In this document: positions 26,195-62,356 of the stretch, one piece after another
Position numbering within the stretch: position 1 is the first letter of the stretch
Layout of the letters: each line of letters starts with the position of its first letter
Assembly: GCA_963824795.1 (NCBI GenBank)
Contig: CAWGQU010000010.1
Location: 1,215-65,214 of the forward strand
Direction: 5' to 3'
Length of the DNA stretch: 64,000 nt
Origin: an uncultured Verrucomicrobiae bacterium
Lineage (GTDB): Bacteria; Verrucomicrobiota; Verrucomicrobiia; Chthoniobacterales; UBA10450
Translations under genes and position numbers: made by a program
The notes under the pieces: generated by a model
Told to the model about the DNA's origin: nothing
Database searches by the model: none
Seen by the model: only the letters and a program-made list of their open reading frames with translations

Positions 26195-27454
26195 TTAACG
26201 CGGATCGGTTACGCGCCCGAGAAATAGACAGACACCGCTTGGGACATGTTGGATGGCGTAAAGAAACGGGCGATCCACGTTGACCTCAATCGGCTCCGAA
26301 GGCCGCATCGCGCTGGTGGCCAGCGCCACAATGGCGGCGGTTGCAGCTGCGGCTTCCGTTCCTTTTTCATCGACCGCGATGAATGTTTTATGAAAAACGC
26401 TTGAGAGATATAAGTATTCGTTAGGCCGACGGGGGGCGAGTCGATCGAAATTTGCGCTGCCCGGCGGTATGTCGAAAGCGCTCTTCATTCCGAGCGCTTC
26501 GAGTTGCGTTTTCAAAGCCACAGTCGGCGGCTCCAATTTGAATTTGGGAAATGAGAGAATGACGTCGGCTGTCGGAAGTTTGGCGCAGTCGGCCAGCATC
26601 GTCGGCGTCAATTTTTTCTCCAGTCCGGCCAGGCCGTTCACATCATCGGGCAAAAGGACAACGAAGTTTAGTTCGCGTCCGGTGTAGGGAATACAGAAAA
26701 CCGTGAATCCCGGATGCTTCGCATAACCAAGGCCATCCAAACGTTTATGCATCATCGGCACATCGACCGGCGAGCCGCCTTTCACGTGAAACGGCTCCGG
26801 TTTCGTCGCTTCTTTTTCGAATGGCTTGGCCCACGGCGCCTTAAGATAAAGCGCGTTGGTCAGGACCATCCGTGCTGTCGCATCGATCGCACCGCTGGGA
26901 ATCAAATCGCGGATACGCTTGTGCGTTTGTTCGGCGACCCAATCGTTGATGTAGGCTCTCGCCTTCTCCGGGTTATTTGAGAAATCGAGCGCTTCAAGCG
27001 GAGCGCCATAATTGCTTTTAACCAGCGTCAGGAAGCTCTGGCGAAAATCGTAGCCTTTCTCGGCGAAAAGACGGTTTGCAATCGTCAGCGTAATCGGTTC
27101 GGACGGGCCACCGTAAATTTTGGATTGGCCGGCGATCTCTTTGGTTCTTTCCGCCATCGCTTCGAGCGATTTTTGGAGCGCGGCGAAGGAGGCGTGGATA
27201 TCGTCACCGCTTTCCGGGAAGTGCAGCGTGCGCGCCATTTCGGTGTGCGTTTTGCCATCGGCGCCCGCGAACGTCATGCCAAGCGCGCTTTCGATTGAAT
27301 ACGGCGAGAGGCAGAGATTTTCTTCGCCGGTTGCGAGTTTACGGTAAAGATCGAGTCCGAACTCGTTTGTCGCAGACGCAGCAGTTTGCATTTGGGCGCC
27401 GTTAGTGTTGAACGCGAGAAGGATCGAACAGAACAGAAGCGAAATCGATTTCAC
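26195..27454 (-). CDS. Secreted serpin (serine protease inhibitor)
   Basis: Signal peptide. Serpin hinge/RCL EKGTEAAAATAAIVALATSAM followed by VDRPFLYAI. Confidence 0.85.
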   Translation of the reverse strand: MKSISLLFCSILLAFNTNGAQMQTAASATNEFGLDLYRKLATGEENLCLSPYSIESALGMTFAGADGKTHTEMARTLHFPESGDDIHASFAALQKSLEAMAERTKEIAGQSKIYGGPSEPITLTIANRLFAEKGYDFRQSFLTLVKSNYGAPLEALDFSNNPEKARAYINDWVAEQTHKRIRDLIPSGAIDATARMVLTNALYLKAPWAKPFEKEATKPEPFHVKGGSPVDVPMMHKRLDGLGYAKHPGFTVFCIPYTGRELNFVVLLPDDVNGLAGLEKKLTPTMLADCAKLPTADVILSFPKFKLEPPTVALKTQLEALGMKSAFDIPPGSANFDRLAPRRPNEYLYLSSVFHKTFIAVDEKGTEAAAATAAIVALATSAMRPSEPIEVNVDRPFLYAIQHVPSGVCLFLGRVTDPR

Positions 27455-27459
27455 AACTC

Positions 27460-27537
27460 TGTCACTCTGAGCGAAGCGAAGAATCTCGCAAGTTCCTCTC
27501 TGTTTTCGAGAGGTCCTTCGCTTCGCTCAGGATGACA
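27460..27537. repeat. Family-B palindromic element, copy 6
   Basis: TGTCACTCTGAGCGAAGCGAAGAATCTCGC ... GAGAGGTCCTTCGCTTCGCTCAGGATGACA. Confidence 0.85.
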
Positions 27538-27539
27538 AA

Positions 27540-29468
27540 CTAAACAATGCCGCTCTGGAGCCACTCGTGTTTCCCAGCGAGAAGTTCCTGCGTCAGATCG
27601 TAGCCGCTGCGATCGGCGTTTTTGCTCGTGCCGGCAAAATGATGATCGATACGCATGCGCGCAGAACGGCAAAAATAATTCGCGAGCGAGAGAATCTCAT
27701 CAGCCGGTTCGCCGTGATTGATCTTTGATTGCGCAAATGAGCAAGTGGCGCTGATCGCAAAAAGTTCCGTCGCAATTCCACAGAAGCGCGAAAGCAACAG
27801 CTGTTCGCGATCGAGCTTCGGGCCGAAGCGCGCCATGGCGTGAAATAATCCCCGCGCAAGACGGTGGCTTGTGCGCGCCGCGTAATCGACGTGAGCGCGC
27901 AGATCGTTGTGCAAATCTTTAATCTCGCCCGCGCCGCCGCCAAACAACTGTTTCGGATACCAGCTCGCATAGAATTTTCCGGAACTGAAAGCTGCTTTGA
28001 CGCGTTCCGACATTGGCAGCTGCGTGTTGAAAATGGCGCCGCCAACTTTGAGATGCGGATCGAGCGCTTCACGTGCGATGAACAAGCGCATGATTTCGCT
28101 CGAACCTTCGAAGATCATGTTGATGCGGCAATCGCGCAGGAAACGTTCGACTGCGATCGGTTCTTCACCGCGACCGGCGAGCGATTGTGCGGTCTCGTAA
28201 CCGCGTCCGCCGCGCACTTGCATCGCTTCGTCGGCGATGCGCCATGTCGTCTCCGTCGCCCACATTTTGCACATCGCAGTCTCGATGCGCAGATCGCCGG
28301 CCTTCCGATCGACCAAAGCCGACGTGAGAAAAGTCATCGCTTCCATTGCGAAAACGCTGCCGGCCATTTCGGCAATCTTGCCGGCGATCGCGTAGTGCTG
28401 ACCGATCGGCACGCCCCATTGCACGCGTTCCTTCGCCCATTTGCGGCAGATCTCGAGCAAACGTTTCGACAGGCCCACGCACGCCGCCGGAATCGTGAGA
28501 CGGCCGGTATTCAAAGTCGTTAGGGCAACCTTCAATCCCGCGCCTTCTTTGGAAATCATGTTCTCGCGCGGCACGCGCACGTCGGTAAATTTCACGACGC
28601 CGTTGTAGAGCGCGCGCAAGCCCATGAAGTGGCAGCGATAGGTGATCTCGAGCCCCGGCGAATCGACATCGACGATGAACGCAGTGATTTGCTTGCGCTC
28701 GCGACCTTTCACGATCTTCGGTGGCGTTTTTGCCATCACCACAAGCACGCCCGCTTTCACGCCGTTCGTGCACCAAAGCTTTTCGCCGTTAAGAATGAAG
28801 GCTGAGCCATCTTCCGTTGGATCGGCCCGCAAGCTCATGTTCGCCGGATCGGAACCGGCGTTCCATTCCGTCAACGCAAACGCGGAGATTTCATGGCGCG
28901 CGACACGCGGCAGATATTTTTTCTTTTGCTCTTCCGTCCCAAAGAGCAGCAGCGGCTGCGGCACACCGATCGATTGATGCGCGGAGACAAGCGCCGTCAC
29001 ATTCGCATCCCAACTTCCCAGCAGCATCGCGGCGCGGCCGTAATTAACCTGCGACAGACCAAGACCTTCGTATTCCTTCGGAATCTTGACGCCGAACGCG
29101 CCCATCGCGAAGAGATCGTCGATGTTCTTTTGCGGAATTTCGCCGGTGCGATCGATCTCATCGGCGTCGACGTTATCGTGCAAATATTTCTTCAGATTGG
29201 AGAGGAATTCTTCTCCGGCGGCGCGATCTTCCGCGCTTTGTTCCGCGAATGGATGAATGCGGTCGAAGTCGAAGCGACCGACAAAAAGATTGCTCGCAAA
29301 ACTGCCGCGATCGTCGAGCGGATCGCGCGATGCTTCGGCCAGCTCCAATGCCGCGCGCTTGCCTTCCGACATCTTCGAAGTGTCGATGACTGATGCCGTT
29401 TGCTTTTCCGACTTCGCGCTTGTTTCCTTGGCGACCTGACGGTCTGGCGCCTCAAGTGGTGAATTCAT
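27540..29468 (-). CDS. Long-form acyl-CoA dehydrogenase
   Basis: 642 aa. ACAD N/M/C domains (TEWNAGSDP, GGRGYE) plus a C-terminal extension. Its ATG overlaps the stop of the upstream fadJ-like fragment. Confidence 0.85.
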   Translation of the reverse strand: MNSPLEAPDRQVAKETSAKSEKQTASVIDTSKMSEGKRAALELAEASRDPLDDRGSFASNLFVGRFDFDRIHPFAEQSAEDRAAGEEFLSNLKKYLHDNVDADEIDRTGEIPQKNIDDLFAMGAFGVKIPKEYEGLGLSQVNYGRAAMLLGSWDANVTALVSAHQSIGVPQPLLLFGTEEQKKKYLPRVARHEISAFALTEWNAGSDPANMSLRADPTEDGSAFILNGEKLWCTNGVKAGVLVVMAKTPPKIVKGRERKQITAFIVDVDSPGLEITYRCHFMGLRALYNGVVKFTDVRVPRENMISKEGAGLKVALTTLNTGRLTIPAACVGLSKRLLEICRKWAKERVQWGVPIGQHYAIAGKIAEMAGSVFAMEAMTFLTSALVDRKAGDLRIETAMCKMWATETTWRIADEAMQVRGGRGYETAQSLAGRGEEPIAVERFLRDCRINMIFEGSSEIMRLFIAREALDPHLKVGGAIFNTQLPMSERVKAAFSSGKFYASWYPKQLFGGGAGEIKDLHNDLRAHVDYAARTSHRLARGLFHAMARFGPKLDREQLLLSRFCGIATELFAISATCSFAQSKINHGEPADEILSLANYFCRSARMRIDHHFAGTSKNADRSGYDLTQELLAGKHEWLQSGIV

Positions 29469-31628
29469 TATCGCTGGCGTTCCTCGTAAAATTTGCTGCC
29501 GTTATCGGCGTGGTGGCGCAGCAAATCGCACGGCTTGAATTTACCGCCGTGCCGATCCCCCGCGCGAGCCATTTCTGCGATGCCAAAATGATCAGCGAAG
29601 CGCAACGGTCCTCCGCGGAACGGAGCGAACCCGGTCCCGAGGATCATTCCGTAATCGGCATCTTCCGGAGTGGCGACGACCTTTTCTTCAAGGCAGCGCG
29701 CGGCTTCATTCACCATGAGATAAATGAGTCGCAGCGCGAGTATCGTTTTGCTCGTCATTCCGAGCGGAGCGCGGAACCTCGCGATCTTTGTTTTCGTGAG
29801 GTCCCTCACTGCGTTCGGGATGACCAGAGGATTTGTTGCGCCACTGTTGGAGTGACTCGTTAGGCGACTGTTGTTTACCGTCGTATTTGTAGAATCCGCT
29901 GCCGGACTTACGGCCAAGCATTTTTTCTTCGCGCATGCGTCGCAAGATTTTAGGCGGGCGATCGCGCTCGCCATAGGCTTTTTCGAGTGTGTCGGCAATA
30001 TCGATCGTGATATCGAGACCGATCTCGTCGATCAGGCGCAAAGGCCCCATCGGCATTCCCCATTGAACAAGGGCGTCGTCGATGTCGCTCGCGCTCACGC
30101 CGTTTTCGTAAAGCTGCGCCGCTTCGAGCAGATAGGGAAAAAGCACGCGATTGACCAAAAAGCCCGGGCTGTCCTGCACGAGCACCGGAAGCTTTCCGAT
30201 CTGTCGCGTGAAGGCGAGCGCGTGATCTGTTGTTTCCGGCGCAGTTCTTTTTCCCACGACTACTTCCACCAGTTTCATGCGACTAACCGGGTTAAAAAAG
30301 TGGAGACCGATGACGCGTTCCGGTGACTTAGTGGTGGCGGCTAACTCGCCGATCGGCAGAGCAGATGTGTTTGTCGCGAGAATCGCTTTGGCTCCAGTTT
30401 TGTCGGAGAGATCAGCGAAAATTTGCTTCTTGATCTCGAGTTTTTCCGATGCGGCTTCGATGACGATTTGCACGTCGCGCATTTCTACGGGTGCGGTCGA
30501 AGCGACAATGCGAGCGCGGCCTTCTTTCGCTTTCGCTTCGCTCATCAGACCGCGCTTCACCGCATCACCATAAGTCTTGTCGATGTTGGCGAGGCCGCGA
30601 TCGATCGCTTCCGAATTGACGTCGCGCAGAATAACCGAAACGCCGCGTGAGCTGAGCCATTGCGCGATCCCGGAACCCATGACGCCGGCGCCGATCACCG
30701 CAGCGTGCGCGATTTTCTCCACGGAAGTTTTTGAGCTTCCTTTGCGATACTTGTCCGCGAGGAAAAAATTGCGGATGAGATTGCGCGTCGATTCCGTTTC
30801 GCCGAGCTCGACAATGGCGTCGAGTTCCATTTTCAATGAATCGTCAACCGAAACGCTCAGCGTCTTGGAGAGAATTTCATTCGCCCGCTCAGGCGCAGGA
30901 TTTCCCAAGGTTTTCGACGCAGTAATCGATTTGGTTTCACCGGCCACTTTTTCTTCACGGCGTTTTTTACCCTGGCTAATCTTTGTCCTGGCCGTTTCGA
31001 GCAATTGCTCGCGACCGACGACTTCGTCGACGAGTCCAAGCTCTTTTGCTTCCGCGGCCGAATACAATTTCCCTTTCGAAATTACATCGGCGGATTTCTC
31101 GACTCCGATCAATCGTGGCAAACGCGTGGTTCCGCCCCACGCCGGCAATAAACCGAGTGTCGTTTCCGGCAGGCCGATTTTTGTCGCAGGATCGTTTGAT
31201 GCGAGGCGATAATCGCACGCCAGCGTTATTTCGTATCCGCCACCGGCGCACGCGCCGTGAATCGCAGCGCATGTCGGAATTTTTAGCGCGGCGATGCGAT
31301 TGAAAACTCGTTGGCCTTCCGCGATGAAGGCGCGCATTTCGCCGCTCGCGGCCTGACGCATTAGCGTCTTGAGGTCCGCGCCTGCAATGAAAATCGATTT
31401 TTTCGCGGAAGCGATAATCAGGCCCTTGAGCGTTGGTTCGTTTTCAATGAAAGCCACATGTTCGCTCAGCTCGTTCATGGTCGGAGCGTCAAAAATATTC
31501 GCACCGGATTCGGGCCGATCGAACGTGAGCACGCAGATGCGATCGTCGCCAATTTCGCGCTGAATCATCGAATCTGTGACAGTGGCAGACATGACGATCA
31601 ATTTTGGACCGTTTCGCGAAAATTCCAA
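29468..31628 (-). pseudogene. FadJ/FadB-type enoyl-CoA hydratase / 3-hydroxyacyl-CoA dehydrogenase, interrupted by a family-B element with a frame change
   Basis: ORF 31628..29706 carries the ECH and HCDH domains and reads into the repeat (HPERSEGPHENKDREVPRSARNDE). The C-terminal domain (LRLIYLMVNEAARCLEE...GFAPFRGGPLRFAD) continues in another frame (ORF 29998..29468). Confidence 0.7.
29753..29826. repeat. Family-B palindromic element, copy 7, inside the fadJ-like gene
   Basis: CGTCATTCCGAGCGGAGCGCGGAACCTCGCG ... GTGAGGTCCCTCACTGCGTTCGGGATGACC. Confidence 0.85.
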
Positions 31629-59335: not shown

Positions 59336-60282
59336 TGCGGTAACGGTTTGAGTAAAGTGGTGTAGCCCTGCGAATAGGCGGTGAAAACGTCCTCCATATC
59401 GGCTTCGACCCAGCGTTCGCCGAGCCATTTGATATTGGGACACGGCCAATGTTGTTTCCAATGGGCGAGCAATTTTTCGGGCTCGGCGGCATAAAGGCGC
59501 AGGCTTCCACTGCGCAGCGAAACGCCGAGAATATTCGGCTCCTCCCGCAGCCTAACGAGCGCTTCCATGACCGGCTCCGCGTCGATTTCCAAAAGTTTCG
59601 TGTTGAAACTTTCTTTCAATGCGCGCGGCGAAGCTTTCGCGAGCAGATGTCCGCGCTCAATAAAACCAACTTCGGTGCAACGTTCCGCTTCATCCATATA
59701 ATGCGTTGTGACAAAGATAGTGATTCCGTCGTGGCTCAAGTCGTAGAGTAAATCCCACATCTGCTGCCGATGCACCGGATCGAGTCCCGAGGTTGGTTCA
59801 TCGAGAAAAAGTAGCGGCGGATTGTGCACGAGCGCGCAACCGAGCGCGAGCAGTTGGCGCATGCCGCCGGAAAGAGTGCCAGCTGGCGTGTCGCGATTTG
59901 CTTCCAGATCGGTCAAGCGCAGCAGATTGTTGATTCGCTTTTCCAGTTCCCCGCGCGGCACGCGGCACGCGCCACCAAAGAAACGCATGTTTTCGAGGAC
60001 GGTAAGATCTGGATATAAACTGAAACGTTGCGCGACATAACCGAACTTCGTCCGCACGTCGCGGCGTTGTTTCCAAACATCCTTGCCGGCGACTGTCGCT
60101 TTGCCTCGCGTGGGACTGGTCAACCCGCAAAGCATTCGCATTGTCGTCGTCTTGCCTGCGCCGTTAGCTCCGAGAAAACCAAAGATGGCGCCAGAATCGA
60201 TAGAAAACGAGAGGTCTTCGACCGCGTGTACGTGGCCGTAGAACTTCGATAATCGATCGAGCACTATGACGGGTTCACTCAT
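59332..60282 (-). CDS. ABC transporter ATP-binding protein
   Basis: Walker A GANGAGKTTT, signature LSGGMRQ and Walker B LLFLDEP. The start at 60282 is preferred. Confidence 0.9.
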   Translation of the reverse strand: MSEPVIVLDRLSKFYGHVHAVEDLSFSIDSGAIFGFLGANGAGKTTTMRMLCGLTSPTRGKATVAGKDVWKQRRDVRTKFGYVAQRFSLYPDLTVLENMRFFGGACRVPRGELEKRINNLLRLTDLEANRDTPAGTLSGGMRQLLALGCALVHNPPLLFLDEPTSGLDPVHRQQMWDLLYDLSHDGITIFVTTHYMDEAERCTEVGFIERGHLLAKASPRALKESFNTKLLEIDAEPVMEALVRLREEPNILGVSLRSGSLRLYAAEPEKLLAHWKQHWPCPNIKWLGERWVEADMEDVFTAYSQGYTTLLKPLPQ

Positions 60283-60349
60283 GAGAAATACTTGTTCGTT
60301 AGCGGAGTTTGCAACGGAAGCACTATGGGATAGATGTGGTTTCTTCAAA

Positions 60350-61391
60350 ATGGAAACGACATATCACCGCGGTTTACCCGTCATTCTGAGTTTGTTTTTC
60401 GGGGCCACAATCTGCTTTGGAAATTCGATCGCCAGGGCCGATCCGGTCTCGGAAATGGCGAGCTTTTCCGTTTTTGGAAATGTCGATCTCGCGCAACTGG
60501 CCGCTACCGATCTGAAAACGGCCCACGGTCCGCCGATGAACAATCCGCGTTTTCTTTCGGTGCAAAGTTGCTACGTCGTGCCCCGATCGCCGGCGCAGGA
60601 GATCGCGGCAATGCGGAAATGGAATCCCACGTCGCATCGCGAGCTGAAGGTTTATTTGCATTCCGACATTCCCGGTTCCGCCAGTCCGGAAAATTTTTCG
60701 CGCTTGCGCAATGCGCCAGACAACGACGCCGTGCGCTCGCTCGTGGACAAAACAAAAAAACTTTCTTCCGATCTTCAGATCAGCAAGGAAGAGGCAAAGA
60801 AATTTACTCCGGCAAATGATAGCGGCGGCGCGATGCCGGCATCAGTTGCTTCGTTTTGGATGAACGTGTTGAGCGGTCGCGCGCGGGCTTTCGCTTCGGG
60901 TGGCACAGCAGCGGAGGCGCCATACGATCATACGGGGCAAGCCATTCGGCCTAACGAGGAATTGAATGGTCTCTTACGCGAACAGGGAAAAATCCGTCAG
61001 CAATTTTCTTCGTTCCTTGGCAACACCGGAATCGGTCACGGCGCTGGTGGAAAGCCGGAGATGTATTGGGAATTGCTCTCGGCGGACGACGAGGGTGTCG
61101 TGACTTTGGGCGCGGCTTATAACCGCGCTGGCCCGGGTGGAACTTATCAGGCGGCGGATACGCTGTATTATGCGAGCGGCGGTTATTACGTCTCGCTGAC
61201 ACTTTTTCAGATGTGGCCAATCGTGGTTGGCGGGAAACCGTCCACATTGGTCTGGCGCGGTGATTTCGTTTCCGCCGCGCAGTTAGCCACGCTTGCACGG
61301 CGTGGAACGGCTCGCTTCCGAATCGGCCATGATGAAAGACATCACAAAAGCCGTGACATTCTATCGGCGCGATACATCATCGGGCCGTTAG
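60350..61391 (+). pseudogene. Paralog of secreted protein X (module 2) with an apparent 1-nt insertion near 61286
   Basis: Homology to 52021..53082 continues in the +1 frame after ..GDFVSAAQL (PRLHGVERLASESAMMKDITKAVTFYRRD vs GGLDRLFAGGEMVKEAARAAKLFRGD) and ends at TAG 61389-61391. Confidence 0.6.
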
Positions 61392-61405
61392 TCGCTCTGG
61401 AACCG

Positions 61406-62356
61406 ATGAAATCTTCGCCGCGCCGTTTGGCGCAAATTATTGTTTGCTCGTTCGGCGTAGTTGTCTGCACGCGTTTGTTTGCAGGAGATGGGAAGGAGGT
61501 TCTGACTTCGACAGAACCCTCGACCTACACCGAGCCTGCGCCGCAATTCCGTTTCTCTGCCGAATTCAACGTTGAAGAGACATACATCGGAGAGTCCGAT
61601 GTCGCGCGTGGCCGGCATCATGTGAATGATTTTGATGAAAGCAATACGCTCGTGAGTTTCGTGTTCACGCCGCGAGTCTCCTTCGGCATCCTGCGACTCG
61701 GCGCAGCCTACGAAAGATATTCGTTCGGATTCGATAATGGGTGGCCGTTGCCGAACACGTTGCAGGCAGCCAATCTCGTTGTCGGACTCGACACGCAATT
61801 TTCCGATTCCATTCTCGTACGCATCGAAGCGCAGCCCGGCATTTACGGAGCGGGAATGGACGATCTTGAGTGGGATGACGCGAACATTCCTTTCGTCATC
61901 GGCGGGACGTATATTTACAGCCCGAACCTGCAATTCGTTCTTGGCGTCGGCGTCGACGTGAATCGCAAATATCCGGTTGTGCCCGGCGGCGGCATTCGGT
62001 GGAAAATGTCATCGCAGTGGGTGCTCAACGCGGTGCTGCCGAAACCGCGACTCGAGTATGAATTGAATTCCAGTTTCACACTTTACGCTGGCGCGGTGAT
62101 CAAGAGTCAGACGTTTCGTATGAGTGATGATCAGGGCTCGTCAGGTGGGTTGCCCGAACTCGACCGCGCAGTTCTTAATTATACCGAAGTGCGTACGGGC
62201 TTGGGATTCGAATGGAAAATCACCCCCGAAATTACGTTAAGCGCCGAAGGCGGCTATTTGCCCTACCGAGAGTTCGATTTTCACCGGACGGAAGTTCGTT
62301 ACCATCACGAACAGGGCGCGCCTTACGGAACCATCGCCCTGCACGGCGCTTTCTGA
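61406..62356 (+). CDS. Predicted outer-membrane beta-barrel protein (module 2)
   Basis: Internal ATG with its own signal peptide (MKSSPRRLAQIIVCSFGVVVCTRLFA). The C-terminus ends in ...ALHGAF. Paralog of 51024..51935. Confidence 0.6.
   Translation: MKSSPRRLAQIIVCSFGVVVCTRLFAGDGKEVLTSTEPSTYTEPAPQFRFSAEFNVEETYIGESDVARGRHHVNDFDESNTLVSFVFTPRVSFGILRLGAAYERYSFGFDNGWPLPNTLQAANLVVGLDTQFSDSILVRIEAQPGIYGAGMDDLEWDDANIPFVIGGTYIYSPNLQFVLGVGVDVNRKYPVVPGGGIRWKMSSQWVLNAVLPKPRLEYELNSSFTLYAGAVIKSQTFRMSDDQGSSGGLPELDRAVLNYTEVRTGLGFEWKITPEITLSAEGGYLPYREFDFHRTEVRYHHEQGAPYGTIALHGAF

What the first reader, a model, noticed from the sequence alone, without database searches (positions are those of the whole stretch)
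29468..31628. A family-B element sits inside the interdomain linker of a fadJ/fadB-type gene and changes the reading frame
ORF 31628..29706 encodes the hydratase and dehydrogenase domains up to ..GRKSGSGFYKYDGKQQSPNESLQQWRNKSSG. It then reads straight through the repeat (HPERSEGPHENKDREVPRSARNDE) and stops. The missing C-terminal domain (TILALRLIYLMVNEAARCLEEKVV..DADYGMILGTGFAPFRGGPLRFAD) follows immediately after the repeat in another frame (ORF 29998..29468). Its stop overlaps the ATG of the downstream acyl-CoA dehydrogenase (TAATG), as expected for a once-intact, translationally coupled gene. As I delimit it, the element is about 71-74 bp and not clearly a multiple of three, which could by itself explain the frame change. 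The right arm of the element supplies an in-frame ATG (GGAATGACG, giving MTSKTILALRL..). The gene may therefore be dead, split into two polypeptides, or intact in reality with an indel error in the hairpin.
Basis: partly seen in the sequence, partly recalled or inferred. Interest (0 to 1): 0.6.

Follow-up and report, generated by a model that had tools for sequence, protein, structure and literature searches.

The report
In-frame hairpin repeat inside fadJ linker
A 71-base hairpin repeat does sit inside a fatty-acid-oxidation gene, but it is an old insert that is read in frame as a floppy 20-residue linker; the apparent break in the gene is one extra base just after it, most likely an assembly error.

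Summary
A 71-nt hairpin repeat (29754-29824, minus strand) lies between the two C-terminal 3HCDH domains of a fadJ/fadB-type gene, and the last domain is in another frame.

The element does not cause the frame change. Same-genus genomes G001 and G004 carry the same element at the same site in frame (225 nt against 226 in the window). Every relative lacks one base at 29739-29741, 13-15 nt downstream of the element. Near-identical soil-metagenome contigs, one of them spanning the whole element, also lack that base.

A second 1-nt insertion breaks another gene in the window at about 61292. The sister MAG G005 has many such insertions. I therefore favour a consensus error (about 0.7-0.75) over a real, very recent mutation (about 0.2).

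The element is translated as about 20 hydrophilic residues (GHPERSEGP..VPRSARND), which the model predicts to be disordered. Its arms are 94-96% identical between species whose fadJ genes are 78-82% identical. Copies in the same reading phase sit inside uvrA, apbE and an MFS gene of this genome, and inside dnaE of a relative.

This matches the known intragenic REP / Rickettsia RPE phenomenon, so it is a new member of a known kind. One side lead: the arm sequence occurs nearly unchanged across many phyla, and I found no paper that mentions it.

The parts
29706..31592 (-). fadJ/fadB-type gene, frame A. It covers the enoyl-CoA hydratase, the NAD-binding dehydrogenase domain and the first 3HCDH C-domain, then the element, then a false stop at TGA 29708-29706. 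The probable start is ATG 31592; TTG 31628 also opens the frame.
   Evidence: Read through, the gene gives 707 aa from ATG 31592. Full-length public homologs that carry the element are 700-733 aa.
29754..29824 (-). 71-nt hairpin repeat (GTCATCCCGAACG..CGCTCGGAATGAC). In frame A it is translated as (G)HPERSEGPHENKDREVPRSARND.
   Evidence: The same element sits at the same site in G001 and G004.
29739..29741 (-). Site of the single extra nucleotide that shifts the frame. The coding strand reads GAT ACTC GCG. Relatives read GAT CTC GCG. Metagenome contigs X2 and X4 read GAT ACC GCG.
29468..29740 (-). Second 3HCDH C-terminal domain of the same gene, in frame B (LALRLIYLMVNEAARC..FYEERQR), with stop TAA at 29470-29468.
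29756..29758 (-). ATG inside the right arm, in frame B. It could serve as a restart codon only if the frameshift were real. No Shine-Dalgarno-like motif precedes it.
   Evidence: sequence read directly.
27540..29468 (-). Downstream acyl-CoA dehydrogenase gene (642 aa). Its ATG overlaps the fadJ stop (TAATG).
27461..27536 (.). Second copy of the same repeat family (76 nt), beginning 4 nt after the stop of the acyl-CoA dehydrogenase gene. This is the usual extragenic position.

Best explanation
The locus is one fadJ/fadB-type multifunctional beta-oxidation gene of a soil Chthoniobacterales (Verrucomicrobiota) MAG. It is followed by a translationally coupled acyl-CoA dehydrogenase gene.

A member of an abundant hairpin repeat family was inserted long ago into the loop that joins the two C-terminal 3HCDH domains. 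The copy has been inherited in frame and adds about 20 hydrophilic, disordered residues.

The frame break in the window is a separate event: one extra nucleotide at 29739-29741, 13-15 nt downstream of the element. It is most likely an error of the MAG consensus at a strain-variable junction. If so, the organism makes an intact protein of about 707 aa.

Shown: the position of the break, the in-frame state in relatives, and the existence of in-frame near-identical alleles. Inferred: that the extra base is an artefact.
For: 1. Location of the break.
- The span LGRK..ARC is 226 nt in the window. It is 225 nt, in frame, in G001 and G004, which carry the same 71-nt element at the same site.
- After the element, frame A still matches the relatives (RNDEQND against RNDNESD, RNDSESD and RNDNAND). 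Frame B takes over at LALRL.
- Pairwise alignments with G001, G004, G005 and G002 each place a 1-nt surplus in the window at gene nt 1852-1853.

2. In-frame alleles in independent data.
- Contig X2-9 (209 nt, 2 mismatches) has one letter left out at 29739.
- Contig X4-22 covers 29740-29878, so it spans the whole element without a gap. Its loose 12 letters equal 29727-29738, so it lacks 29739.
- Contig X1-3 is also one base shorter.
- No laid contig shows the window's version.

3. Error context.
- A second 1-nt insertion breaks gene X' at about 61292.
- The sister MAG G005 has roughly two dozen ORF-breaking 1-nt insertions in 47 kb.
- G001, G004 and G005 each have other single-base breaks in this same gene.
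- The C-terminal domain shows no further decay (94% nt identity to G005).

4. Tolerance of the insert.
- At least 23 public full-length proteins carry HPERSEGP..RND in this linker, and 45 of the 114 classified have extended linkers.
- In the AlphaFold model of the G001 fragment, pLDDT is below 50 at residues 296-319, which cover the element-coded residues (about 298-320) and two residues before them. The flanking domains score 78-93.
- Solved FadJ, FadB and TFE-alpha chains show a gap there.
Against: - The sample from which the MAG was assembled was not among the runs available; the best run shared 0.28 of the words. The window's own reads were therefore never inspected.
- The extra base is not in a homopolymer.
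- A crude scan of the window found no further broken genes apart from X'. G000 is therefore much cleaner than G005, and a real strain-specific mutation cannot be excluded.
- Two exact-pattern scans of JGI metagenome contigs found neither version.
Confidence: 0.72

Rival explanations
1. The extra base is a real, very recent mutation in this strain. In that case fadJ is either a fresh pseudogene that lacks its last ~95 residues, or it is expressed as two polypeptides, with the second restarting at the ATG in the right arm.
For: - The window sequence itself.
- G000 has few other indels compared with G005.
- An in-frame ATG lies at 29758-29756.
- The break falls in an interdomain linker, where a split could be tolerated.
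Against: - Three near-identical metagenome contigs and all four same-genus genomes compared across the site (G001, G002, G004, G005) lack the base.
- The C-terminal domain shows no further decay.
- No Shine-Dalgarno-like sequence precedes the ATG.
- The same kind of 1-nt insertion breaks X' in this window and many genes in G005.
Confidence: 0.2
2. One reading: insertion of the 71-74-nt element itself shifted the frame and split or killed the gene.
For: 71 is not a multiple of three, and the two frames meet near the element.
Against: - The identical-length element is in frame in G001, G004 and contig X4-22.
- Frame A stays homologous for 7 codons beyond the element.
- The surplus base maps outside the hairpin.
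Confidence: 0.02
3. The sequence is correct, and the ribosome restores the frame by a programmed +1 shift near GAT-ACT-C, perhaps helped by the upstream hairpin.
For: A stable hairpin (-36 kcal/mol) lies 13 nt upstream of the shift site.
Against: - There is no slippery or hungry-codon motif.
- The stimulatory structure would be on the wrong side, upstream rather than downstream.
- All relatives are simply in frame, so the shift site is not conserved.
Confidence: 0.02

Closest known systems
Intragenic REP elements (GTAG- and CGTC-tagged palindromic repeats; Di Nocera et al. 2013, PMC3733652)
   Same: - Abundant palindromic repeats, mostly just 3' of ORFs.
- A minority lie wholly inside ORFs, where dimers encode 20-30 residues.
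- Replication and repair genes such as uvrA and dnaE are often hit, also in a verrucomicrobium, Opitutus terrae.
- Here the copies sit in fadJ, uvrA, apbE and an MFS gene, and in dnaE of a relative.
   Different: - There is no GTAG or CGTC tag; the base before GTCAT is mostly T.
- The unit is one long hairpin of two 25-27-nt arms with a variable loop of 15-100 nt, not a 20-40-nt palindrome.
- The arm sequence is shared across phyla.
Rickettsia palindromic elements (RPE; reviewed in PMC10969869)
   Same: Palindromic selfish repeats that are inserted in frame in unrelated housekeeping genes, translated as part of the protein and compatible with the fold.
   Different: - The sequence is unrelated and shorter (66-151 nt against about 150 nt).
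- The host is a free-living soil bacterium.
- Most copies here are extragenic.
REPIN-RAYT systems (Bertels and Rainey 2011, PMC3116915)
   Same: - Two inverted arms separated by a spacer form a hairpin.
- There are tens to hundreds of copies.
- Inheritance is vertical and long-lasting.
- Y1 transposase domains are present in the genome.
   Different: The three Y1_Tnp loci are not flanked by the element. No cognate enzyme has been identified.
FadJ/FadB and the mitochondrial trifunctional enzyme alpha subunit (PDB 6YSV, 8BNR, 1WDK, 6DV2)
   Same: Same domain order: hydratase, NAD-binding domain, then two 3HCDH C-domains. E-values are 1e-70 to 1e-73 for the dehydrogenase half.
   Different: The loop between the last two domains carries about 20 extra residues. 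The solved chains show a gap at that point.

Membership tests
FadJ/FadB multifunctional enzyme (alpha subunit of the fatty-acid oxidation complex) | N-terminal enoyl-CoA hydratase/isomerase domain | tested here: met
   PF00378 ECH_1, E = 2e-41, residues 30-240.
FadJ/FadB multifunctional enzyme (alpha subunit of the fatty-acid oxidation complex) | NAD-binding 3-hydroxyacyl-CoA dehydrogenase domain followed by two 3HCDH C-terminal domains in one chain | tested here: inconclusive
   - 3HCDH_N and the first 3HCDH are on the long ORF. The second 3HCDH is on the short ORF in another frame.
- The parts form one chain in all orthologs and in near-identical contigs.
- The window as written breaks the chain.
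FadJ/FadB multifunctional enzyme (alpha subunit of the fatty-acid oxidation complex) | Partner thiolase (FadA/FadI) gene adjacent | tested here: not met
   The downstream gene is an acyl-CoA dehydrogenase and the upstream neighbour is a divergent mgtE. I did not search for a thiolase elsewhere in the genome.
REP (GTAG/CGTC-tagged) repeats | GTAG or CGTC tetranucleotide at one end of a 20-40-nt palindrome | tested here: not met
   The termini are GTCAT/ATGAC. The preceding dinucleotides are CT 42, TT 36 and CG 26 of 176, so no tag is present.
REPIN | Two inverted repeat units separated by a spacer that fold into a hairpin, present in many copies | tested here: met
   88 paired elements with arms of about 25-27 nt and variable loops. 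The fadJ copy folds at -36 kcal/mol, z = -5.5.
REPIN | Cognate RAYT (Y1 transposase) gene flanked by the repeat | tested here: not met
   Three PF01797 matches in G000. None is flanked by the element: two have no good arm match within 3 kb (one of them only a weak 5-mismatch hit), and the third has a single arm about 2.9 kb away on one side. The genome is only 62% complete, so a cognate gene may be unassembled.
MITE | Terminal inverted repeats plus target-site duplication | tested here: inconclusive
   Terminal inverted repeats are present. No direct repeat is visible in the flanks of the 88 copies, and no parent IS was looked for.
Rickettsia palindromic elements | In-frame insertion in unrelated protein-coding genes, translated with the host protein | tested here: met
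   - fadJ.
- uvrA-like, MFS and ApbE genes: Pfam domains lie on both sides of the element within one ORF.
- dnaE in L121.
- Translation itself is inferred, not measured.
Rickettsia palindromic elements | Sequence membership in the RPE families | not tested
   I did not compare the element with any RPE sequence. It gave no match in Rfam, and I did not check whether Rfam holds RPE models.

The most novel reading that the evidence does not exclude
The hairpin belongs to a single repeat family that is still undescribed. Its 27-nt arm (GTCATYCYGAGCGNAGCGARGRAYCTC) is shared almost letter for letter by many bacterial phyla, including CPR lineages and cultured isolates.

The arms are actively maintained at the nucleotide level even inside coding sequence. 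This implies a conserved trans-acting enzyme, or a DNA- or RNA-level function that rides inside housekeeping genes.
Probability: 0.3. Interest if true: 0.7.

Novelty: new member of a known kind. Interest (0 to 1): 0.4.

Why it matters
For annotation, this fadJ should not be called a pseudogene or a split gene on this evidence. The break is a single base next to a strain-variable hairpin, a kind of place where MAG consensus sequences may go wrong.

For biology, the locus is a clean natural case of a selfish hairpin repeat that has been carried in frame in a metabolic enzyme across several species. It shows three things:
- independent in-frame losses of about 60 nt in G002 and the G005 type;
- compensatory changes that keep the stem;
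- arms far better conserved than the synonymous sites around them.

This makes it a useful system to ask whether such repeats are kept by selection on a DNA or RNA structure, by gene conversion, or by a dedicated enzyme. The cross-phylum identity of the arm is the part that may be new and deserves its own study.

Tried and rejected
- **Rfam scan of 27300-30000.** It gave only a chance miRNA match (E = 0.16, far below the gathering score), so no known RNA family fits.
- **Literature searches** for the arm sequences and for the encoded peptides returned 0 papers. A search for 'Udaeobacter' plus 'palindromic' also returned 0.
- **Exact look-up of the acyl-CoA dehydrogenase protein**, to find other assemblies of the same strain: not on record.
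- **Two exact-pattern scans of JGI metagenome contigs** across the break, allowing either version: 0 hits.
- **Sequencing-run search.** The best run held only 0.28 of the words, so the source sample was not available. Parts of the stretch without contig cover are not evidence of anything.
- **Four overlapping ORF pairs in the window**, suspected to be further frameshifts, proved to be separate genes: ftsQ/ftsA, a histidine kinase with a sigma-54 regulator, PGPGW/hflX, and an ABC permease with its ATPase.
- **Reading the gene through with a four-letter codon word** (GATA=D or ACTC=T) failed, because each word recurs in frame elsewhere in the gene. I used the in-frame ortholog G001 for the fold instead.
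- **Other candidate intragenic copies.**
  - C18 (lysyl/aspartyl-tRNA synthetase): the element lies upstream of the first domain and is probably outside the gene.
  - C41: not confirmed, no Pfam domain.
  - L053, L103 and L122: not confirmed, no Pfam domain.
- **CGTC-tag and RAYT-flanking tests:** negative.
Full report
**1. Observation**

On the minus strand, an ORF from 31628 (probable ATG at 31592) to 29706 encodes an enoyl-CoA hydratase domain, an NAD-binding 3-hydroxyacyl-CoA dehydrogenase domain and a first 3HCDH C-domain. A second 3HCDH C-domain lies in the +1 frame, in the ORF 29998..29468.

Between the two lies a 71-nt hairpin, GTCATCCCGAACG..CGCTCGGAATGAC (29754-29824). It folds at -36 kcal/mol, z = -5.5. 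The stop of the short ORF overlaps the ATG of a 642-aa acyl-CoA dehydrogenase gene (TAATG).

The hairpin belongs to a repeat family with 120 arm matches and 88 paired copies in this MAG. The MAG has 1.96 Mb in 41 contigs and is 62% complete. Copies are 66-151 nt long, with conserved arms, variable loops and no visible target duplication. A second copy begins 4 nt after the stop of the acyl-CoA dehydrogenase gene (27461-27536).

**2. Where the frame really breaks**

Orthologs in 18 genomes of the same family are single genes with open frames of 694-744 aa.

I measured the span from LGRKxGxGFY to LMVNEAARC in each genome:

| Genome | Span (nt) | Linker state |
|---|---|---|
| Window (G000) | 226 | 71-nt element, out of frame |
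| G001, G004 (same genus) | 225 | same 71-nt element, same position, in frame |
| G002, G005 (same genus) | 165 | relic of the element (see section 5) |
| Most other relatives | 159-168 | no recognisable element |

G001 reads ..NPTASHPERSEGSHEVKDREVPRSARNDNESDLALRLIY... G004 reads ..TSSGHPERSEGPDQAGTRGVPRSARNDSESDLALRLVF...

In the window, frame A stays homologous through the element and for seven more codons (RNDEQND). Homology then moves to frame B at LALRL. Pairwise DNA alignments with G001, G004, G005 and G002 each place one surplus base in the window at gene nt 1852-1853. The window reads GAT-ACTC-GCG where the relatives read GAT-CTC-GC or GAT-TTC-GCG.

The break is therefore a 1-nt insertion at 29739-29741, 13-15 nt downstream of the hairpin. 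The element itself is a net in-frame addition of 60 nt (20 codons) over the 165-nt alleles.

**3. Independent sequence**

Contigs of four soil-metagenome runs from two studies were laid on 29300-30400.

- Contig X2-9 (209 nt, 2 mismatches) reaches 18 nt into the element and has one letter left out at 29739.
- Contig X4-22 covers 29740-29878 without a gap, so it holds the whole element. Its 12 unaligned letters equal 29727-29738, so it also lacks 29739. Both contigs read GAT ACC GCG (D-T-A), in frame.
- Contig X1-3 (1 mismatch in 155 nt) ends ..AAC GGT CTC GCG and is also one base shorter.
- X3 and X4 also contain the element-free G005-type allele, which departs from the window exactly at 29740.
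- No contig reproduces the window's version.
- The source sample was not among the runs; the best share of words was 0.28.

An inference: the window's GATACTCGCG equals the column-wise union of the two in-frame alleles GATAC-CGCG and GAT-CTCGCG. A consensus built from mixed strains could produce exactly that.

**4. Error or mutation?**

I aligned 47 kb of the window to the sister MAG G005 (FadJ branch lengths of 0.02 on each side). G005 shows roughly two dozen single-base insertions that shorten its ORFs.

G000 has two ORF-breaking insertions. One is the fadJ base. The other is at about 61292: there gene X' loses its last ~33 codons and runs on into the next gene. G005 and the paralog X keep the proper C-terminus.

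G001, G004 and G005 each have other single-base breaks within fadJ itself. Four further suspicious ORF pairs in the window turned out to be separate genes, so G000 is fairly clean.

The C-terminal domain is 94% identical in DNA to G005 and has no other defect. I put a consensus artefact at about 0.7-0.75, a real and very recent mutation at about 0.2, and the remaining readings at a few per cent.

**5. History of the insert**

On a FadJ tree, the genus of the window together with G006 and G008 forms a clade (support 91/93). All five copies that I classed as full lie in this clade: G000, G001, G004, G006 and G008.

- G002 keeps GGC|CGGAATGAC. This equals the window's sequence after removal of exactly 60 nt between two TC dinucleotides, plus one synonymous change.
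- The G005-type linker (..PPRFSGDDLALRL) resembles the right arm of element-bearing proteins (..VPRFARNDHGDDLALRL, P0003). It looks like a second relic left by a deletion of about 60 nt. This is an inference.

A search of public proteins ranked by the linker region returned 120 hits, and the linker could be delimited in 114 of them. Of these, 23 carry HPERSEGP-like linkers and 45 have linkers of 54-74 residues. Some use other variants and another reading phase of the repeat, for example VIPSEVEGSR..RDPSTALRSGRDD. This linker has therefore received or retained the repeat more than once. The hit list is ranked by similarity to the query, so these counts are not frequencies.

G007 and G012 are unpublished genomes.

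**6. The copy is still a hairpin**

| Compared with G000 | fadJ nt identity | Third-position identity, whole gene | Arm identity | Arm third positions |
|---|---|---|---|---|
| G001 | 79% | 56% | 47/50 | 15/17 |
| G004 | 82% | 61% | 48/50 | 15/17 |

These fadJ figures are over gene nt 1-1800. One-sided Fisher tests on the third positions give p = 0.006 and 0.017.

The middle of the element is free to vary: only 10 of 21 positions match in G004. G004 changes CCTC..GAGG to CCCG..CGGG, which keeps the pairing. The three stems fold at -36, -37.8 and -35.3 kcal/mol. This could reflect selection on structure, gene conversion from other copies, or self-templated correction of the palindrome. I cannot tell which.

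**7. Tolerance in the protein**

I built an AlphaFold model of the G001 dehydrogenase half (412 aa, mean pLDDT 80). Residues 296-319 have pLDDT below 50. They cover the element-coded residues (about 298-320) and two residues before them, and sit between well-modelled domains.

The closest solved chains are the human trifunctional enzyme alpha subunit 6DV2, E. coli FadJ 6YSV and 8BNR, and P. fragi FadB 1WDK. They show a gap at this point.

The same reading phase of the repeat (GHPER..ARDD/ARND) is open inside three other genes of this genome, with Pfam domains on both sides:
- a uvrA-like gene;
- an MFS transporter, in its central loop;
- apbE.

In another Chthoniobacterales MAG, assembled from short reads, a copy sits in dnaE between the HhH and OB domains.

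**8. Comparison with what is known**

Intragenic, translated palindromic repeats are known:
- the RPEs of Rickettsia (PMC10969869);
- REPs inside genes of several species, often uvrA, uvrB or dnaE, including the verrucomicrobium Opitutus terrae, where dimers encode 20-30 residues (PMC3733652).

The present family behaves the same way but fails the sequence definitions. It has no GTAG or CGTC tag, and the three Y1 transposase loci of the genome are not flanked by it. It matched nothing in Rfam, and no paper in the library holds its sequence or its peptides.

Within the order, the arm pattern is frequent only in the window's family: 16 of 18 genomes, with 49-147 arm matches per genome in the genus. 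These loci came from Chloroflexota, Acidobacteriota, Nitrospirales, Bacteroidales, Saccharimonadales, Omnitrophota, Planctomycetes, Proteobacteria and others, and from the isolates Pedobacter nototheniae, Pedobacter sp. AK013 and Silvibacterium bohemicum. About 0.02 matches would be expected by chance. Full hairpins were confirmed in many of them. This cross-phylum identity is unexplained and is the most novel lead.

**9. Verdict**

- As a phenomenon it is a new member of a known kind.

Noticed in passing
window 61250-61400 (ORF 60242-62356): There is a second single-base insertion in this MAG at about 61292. Gene X' shifts frame about 33 codons before its end and reads on into the following beta-barrel gene, giving a 704-aa open frame. 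G005 keeps the proper C-terminus (..HGVERLASESAMMKDITKAVTFYRRD..), which matches the paralog X.
   Followed up: yes
L022-L141 (loci): The 27-nt arm GTCATYCYGAGCGNAGCGARGRAYCTC occurs exactly in genomes of many phyla, including CPR lineages and cultured Pedobacter and Silvibacterium. It usually forms the same hairpin with a variable loop. It matched nothing in Rfam and appears in no searchable paper.
   Followed up: partly
G000:C9:24315-27125, G000:C32:58786-60219, G000:C30:66956-67927; L121:3396-6539: Copies of the repeat lie in frame inside a uvrA-like gene, an MFS transporter and apbE of this genome, and inside dnaE of another Chthoniobacterales MAG. All use the same reading phase (GHPER..ARDD).
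   Followed up: partly
L147-L149 (G005:C7:196000-255999): The sister MAG G005 carries roughly two dozen single-base insertions that break ORFs over the 47 kb aligned to the window. This is the signature of a noisy consensus. G001 and G004 also have single-base breaks in fadJ.
   Followed up: partly
L013 and L014, at the position of window gene nt ~633 (about window 30960): The fadJ genes of G001 and G004 carry a second, GC-rich insert (CCCTCACCCTCCCCTCTC..GAGGGAG). It adds 30 nt in G004 and lies in the linker between the hydratase and dehydrogenase domains. It looks like another repeat family.
   Followed up: no
L086:3816-4150 (Pedobacter nototheniae): Three tandem copies of a related unit lie about 100-135 nt apart. 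Each starts with the same arm but has a diverged partner arm.
   Followed up: no
G000:C14:67722-68021: Two nearly identical 79-nt copies of the repeat lie 221 nt apart with identical 5' flanks (ccaaacgcgt). This suggests a recent local duplication that includes flanking sequence.
   Followed up: no
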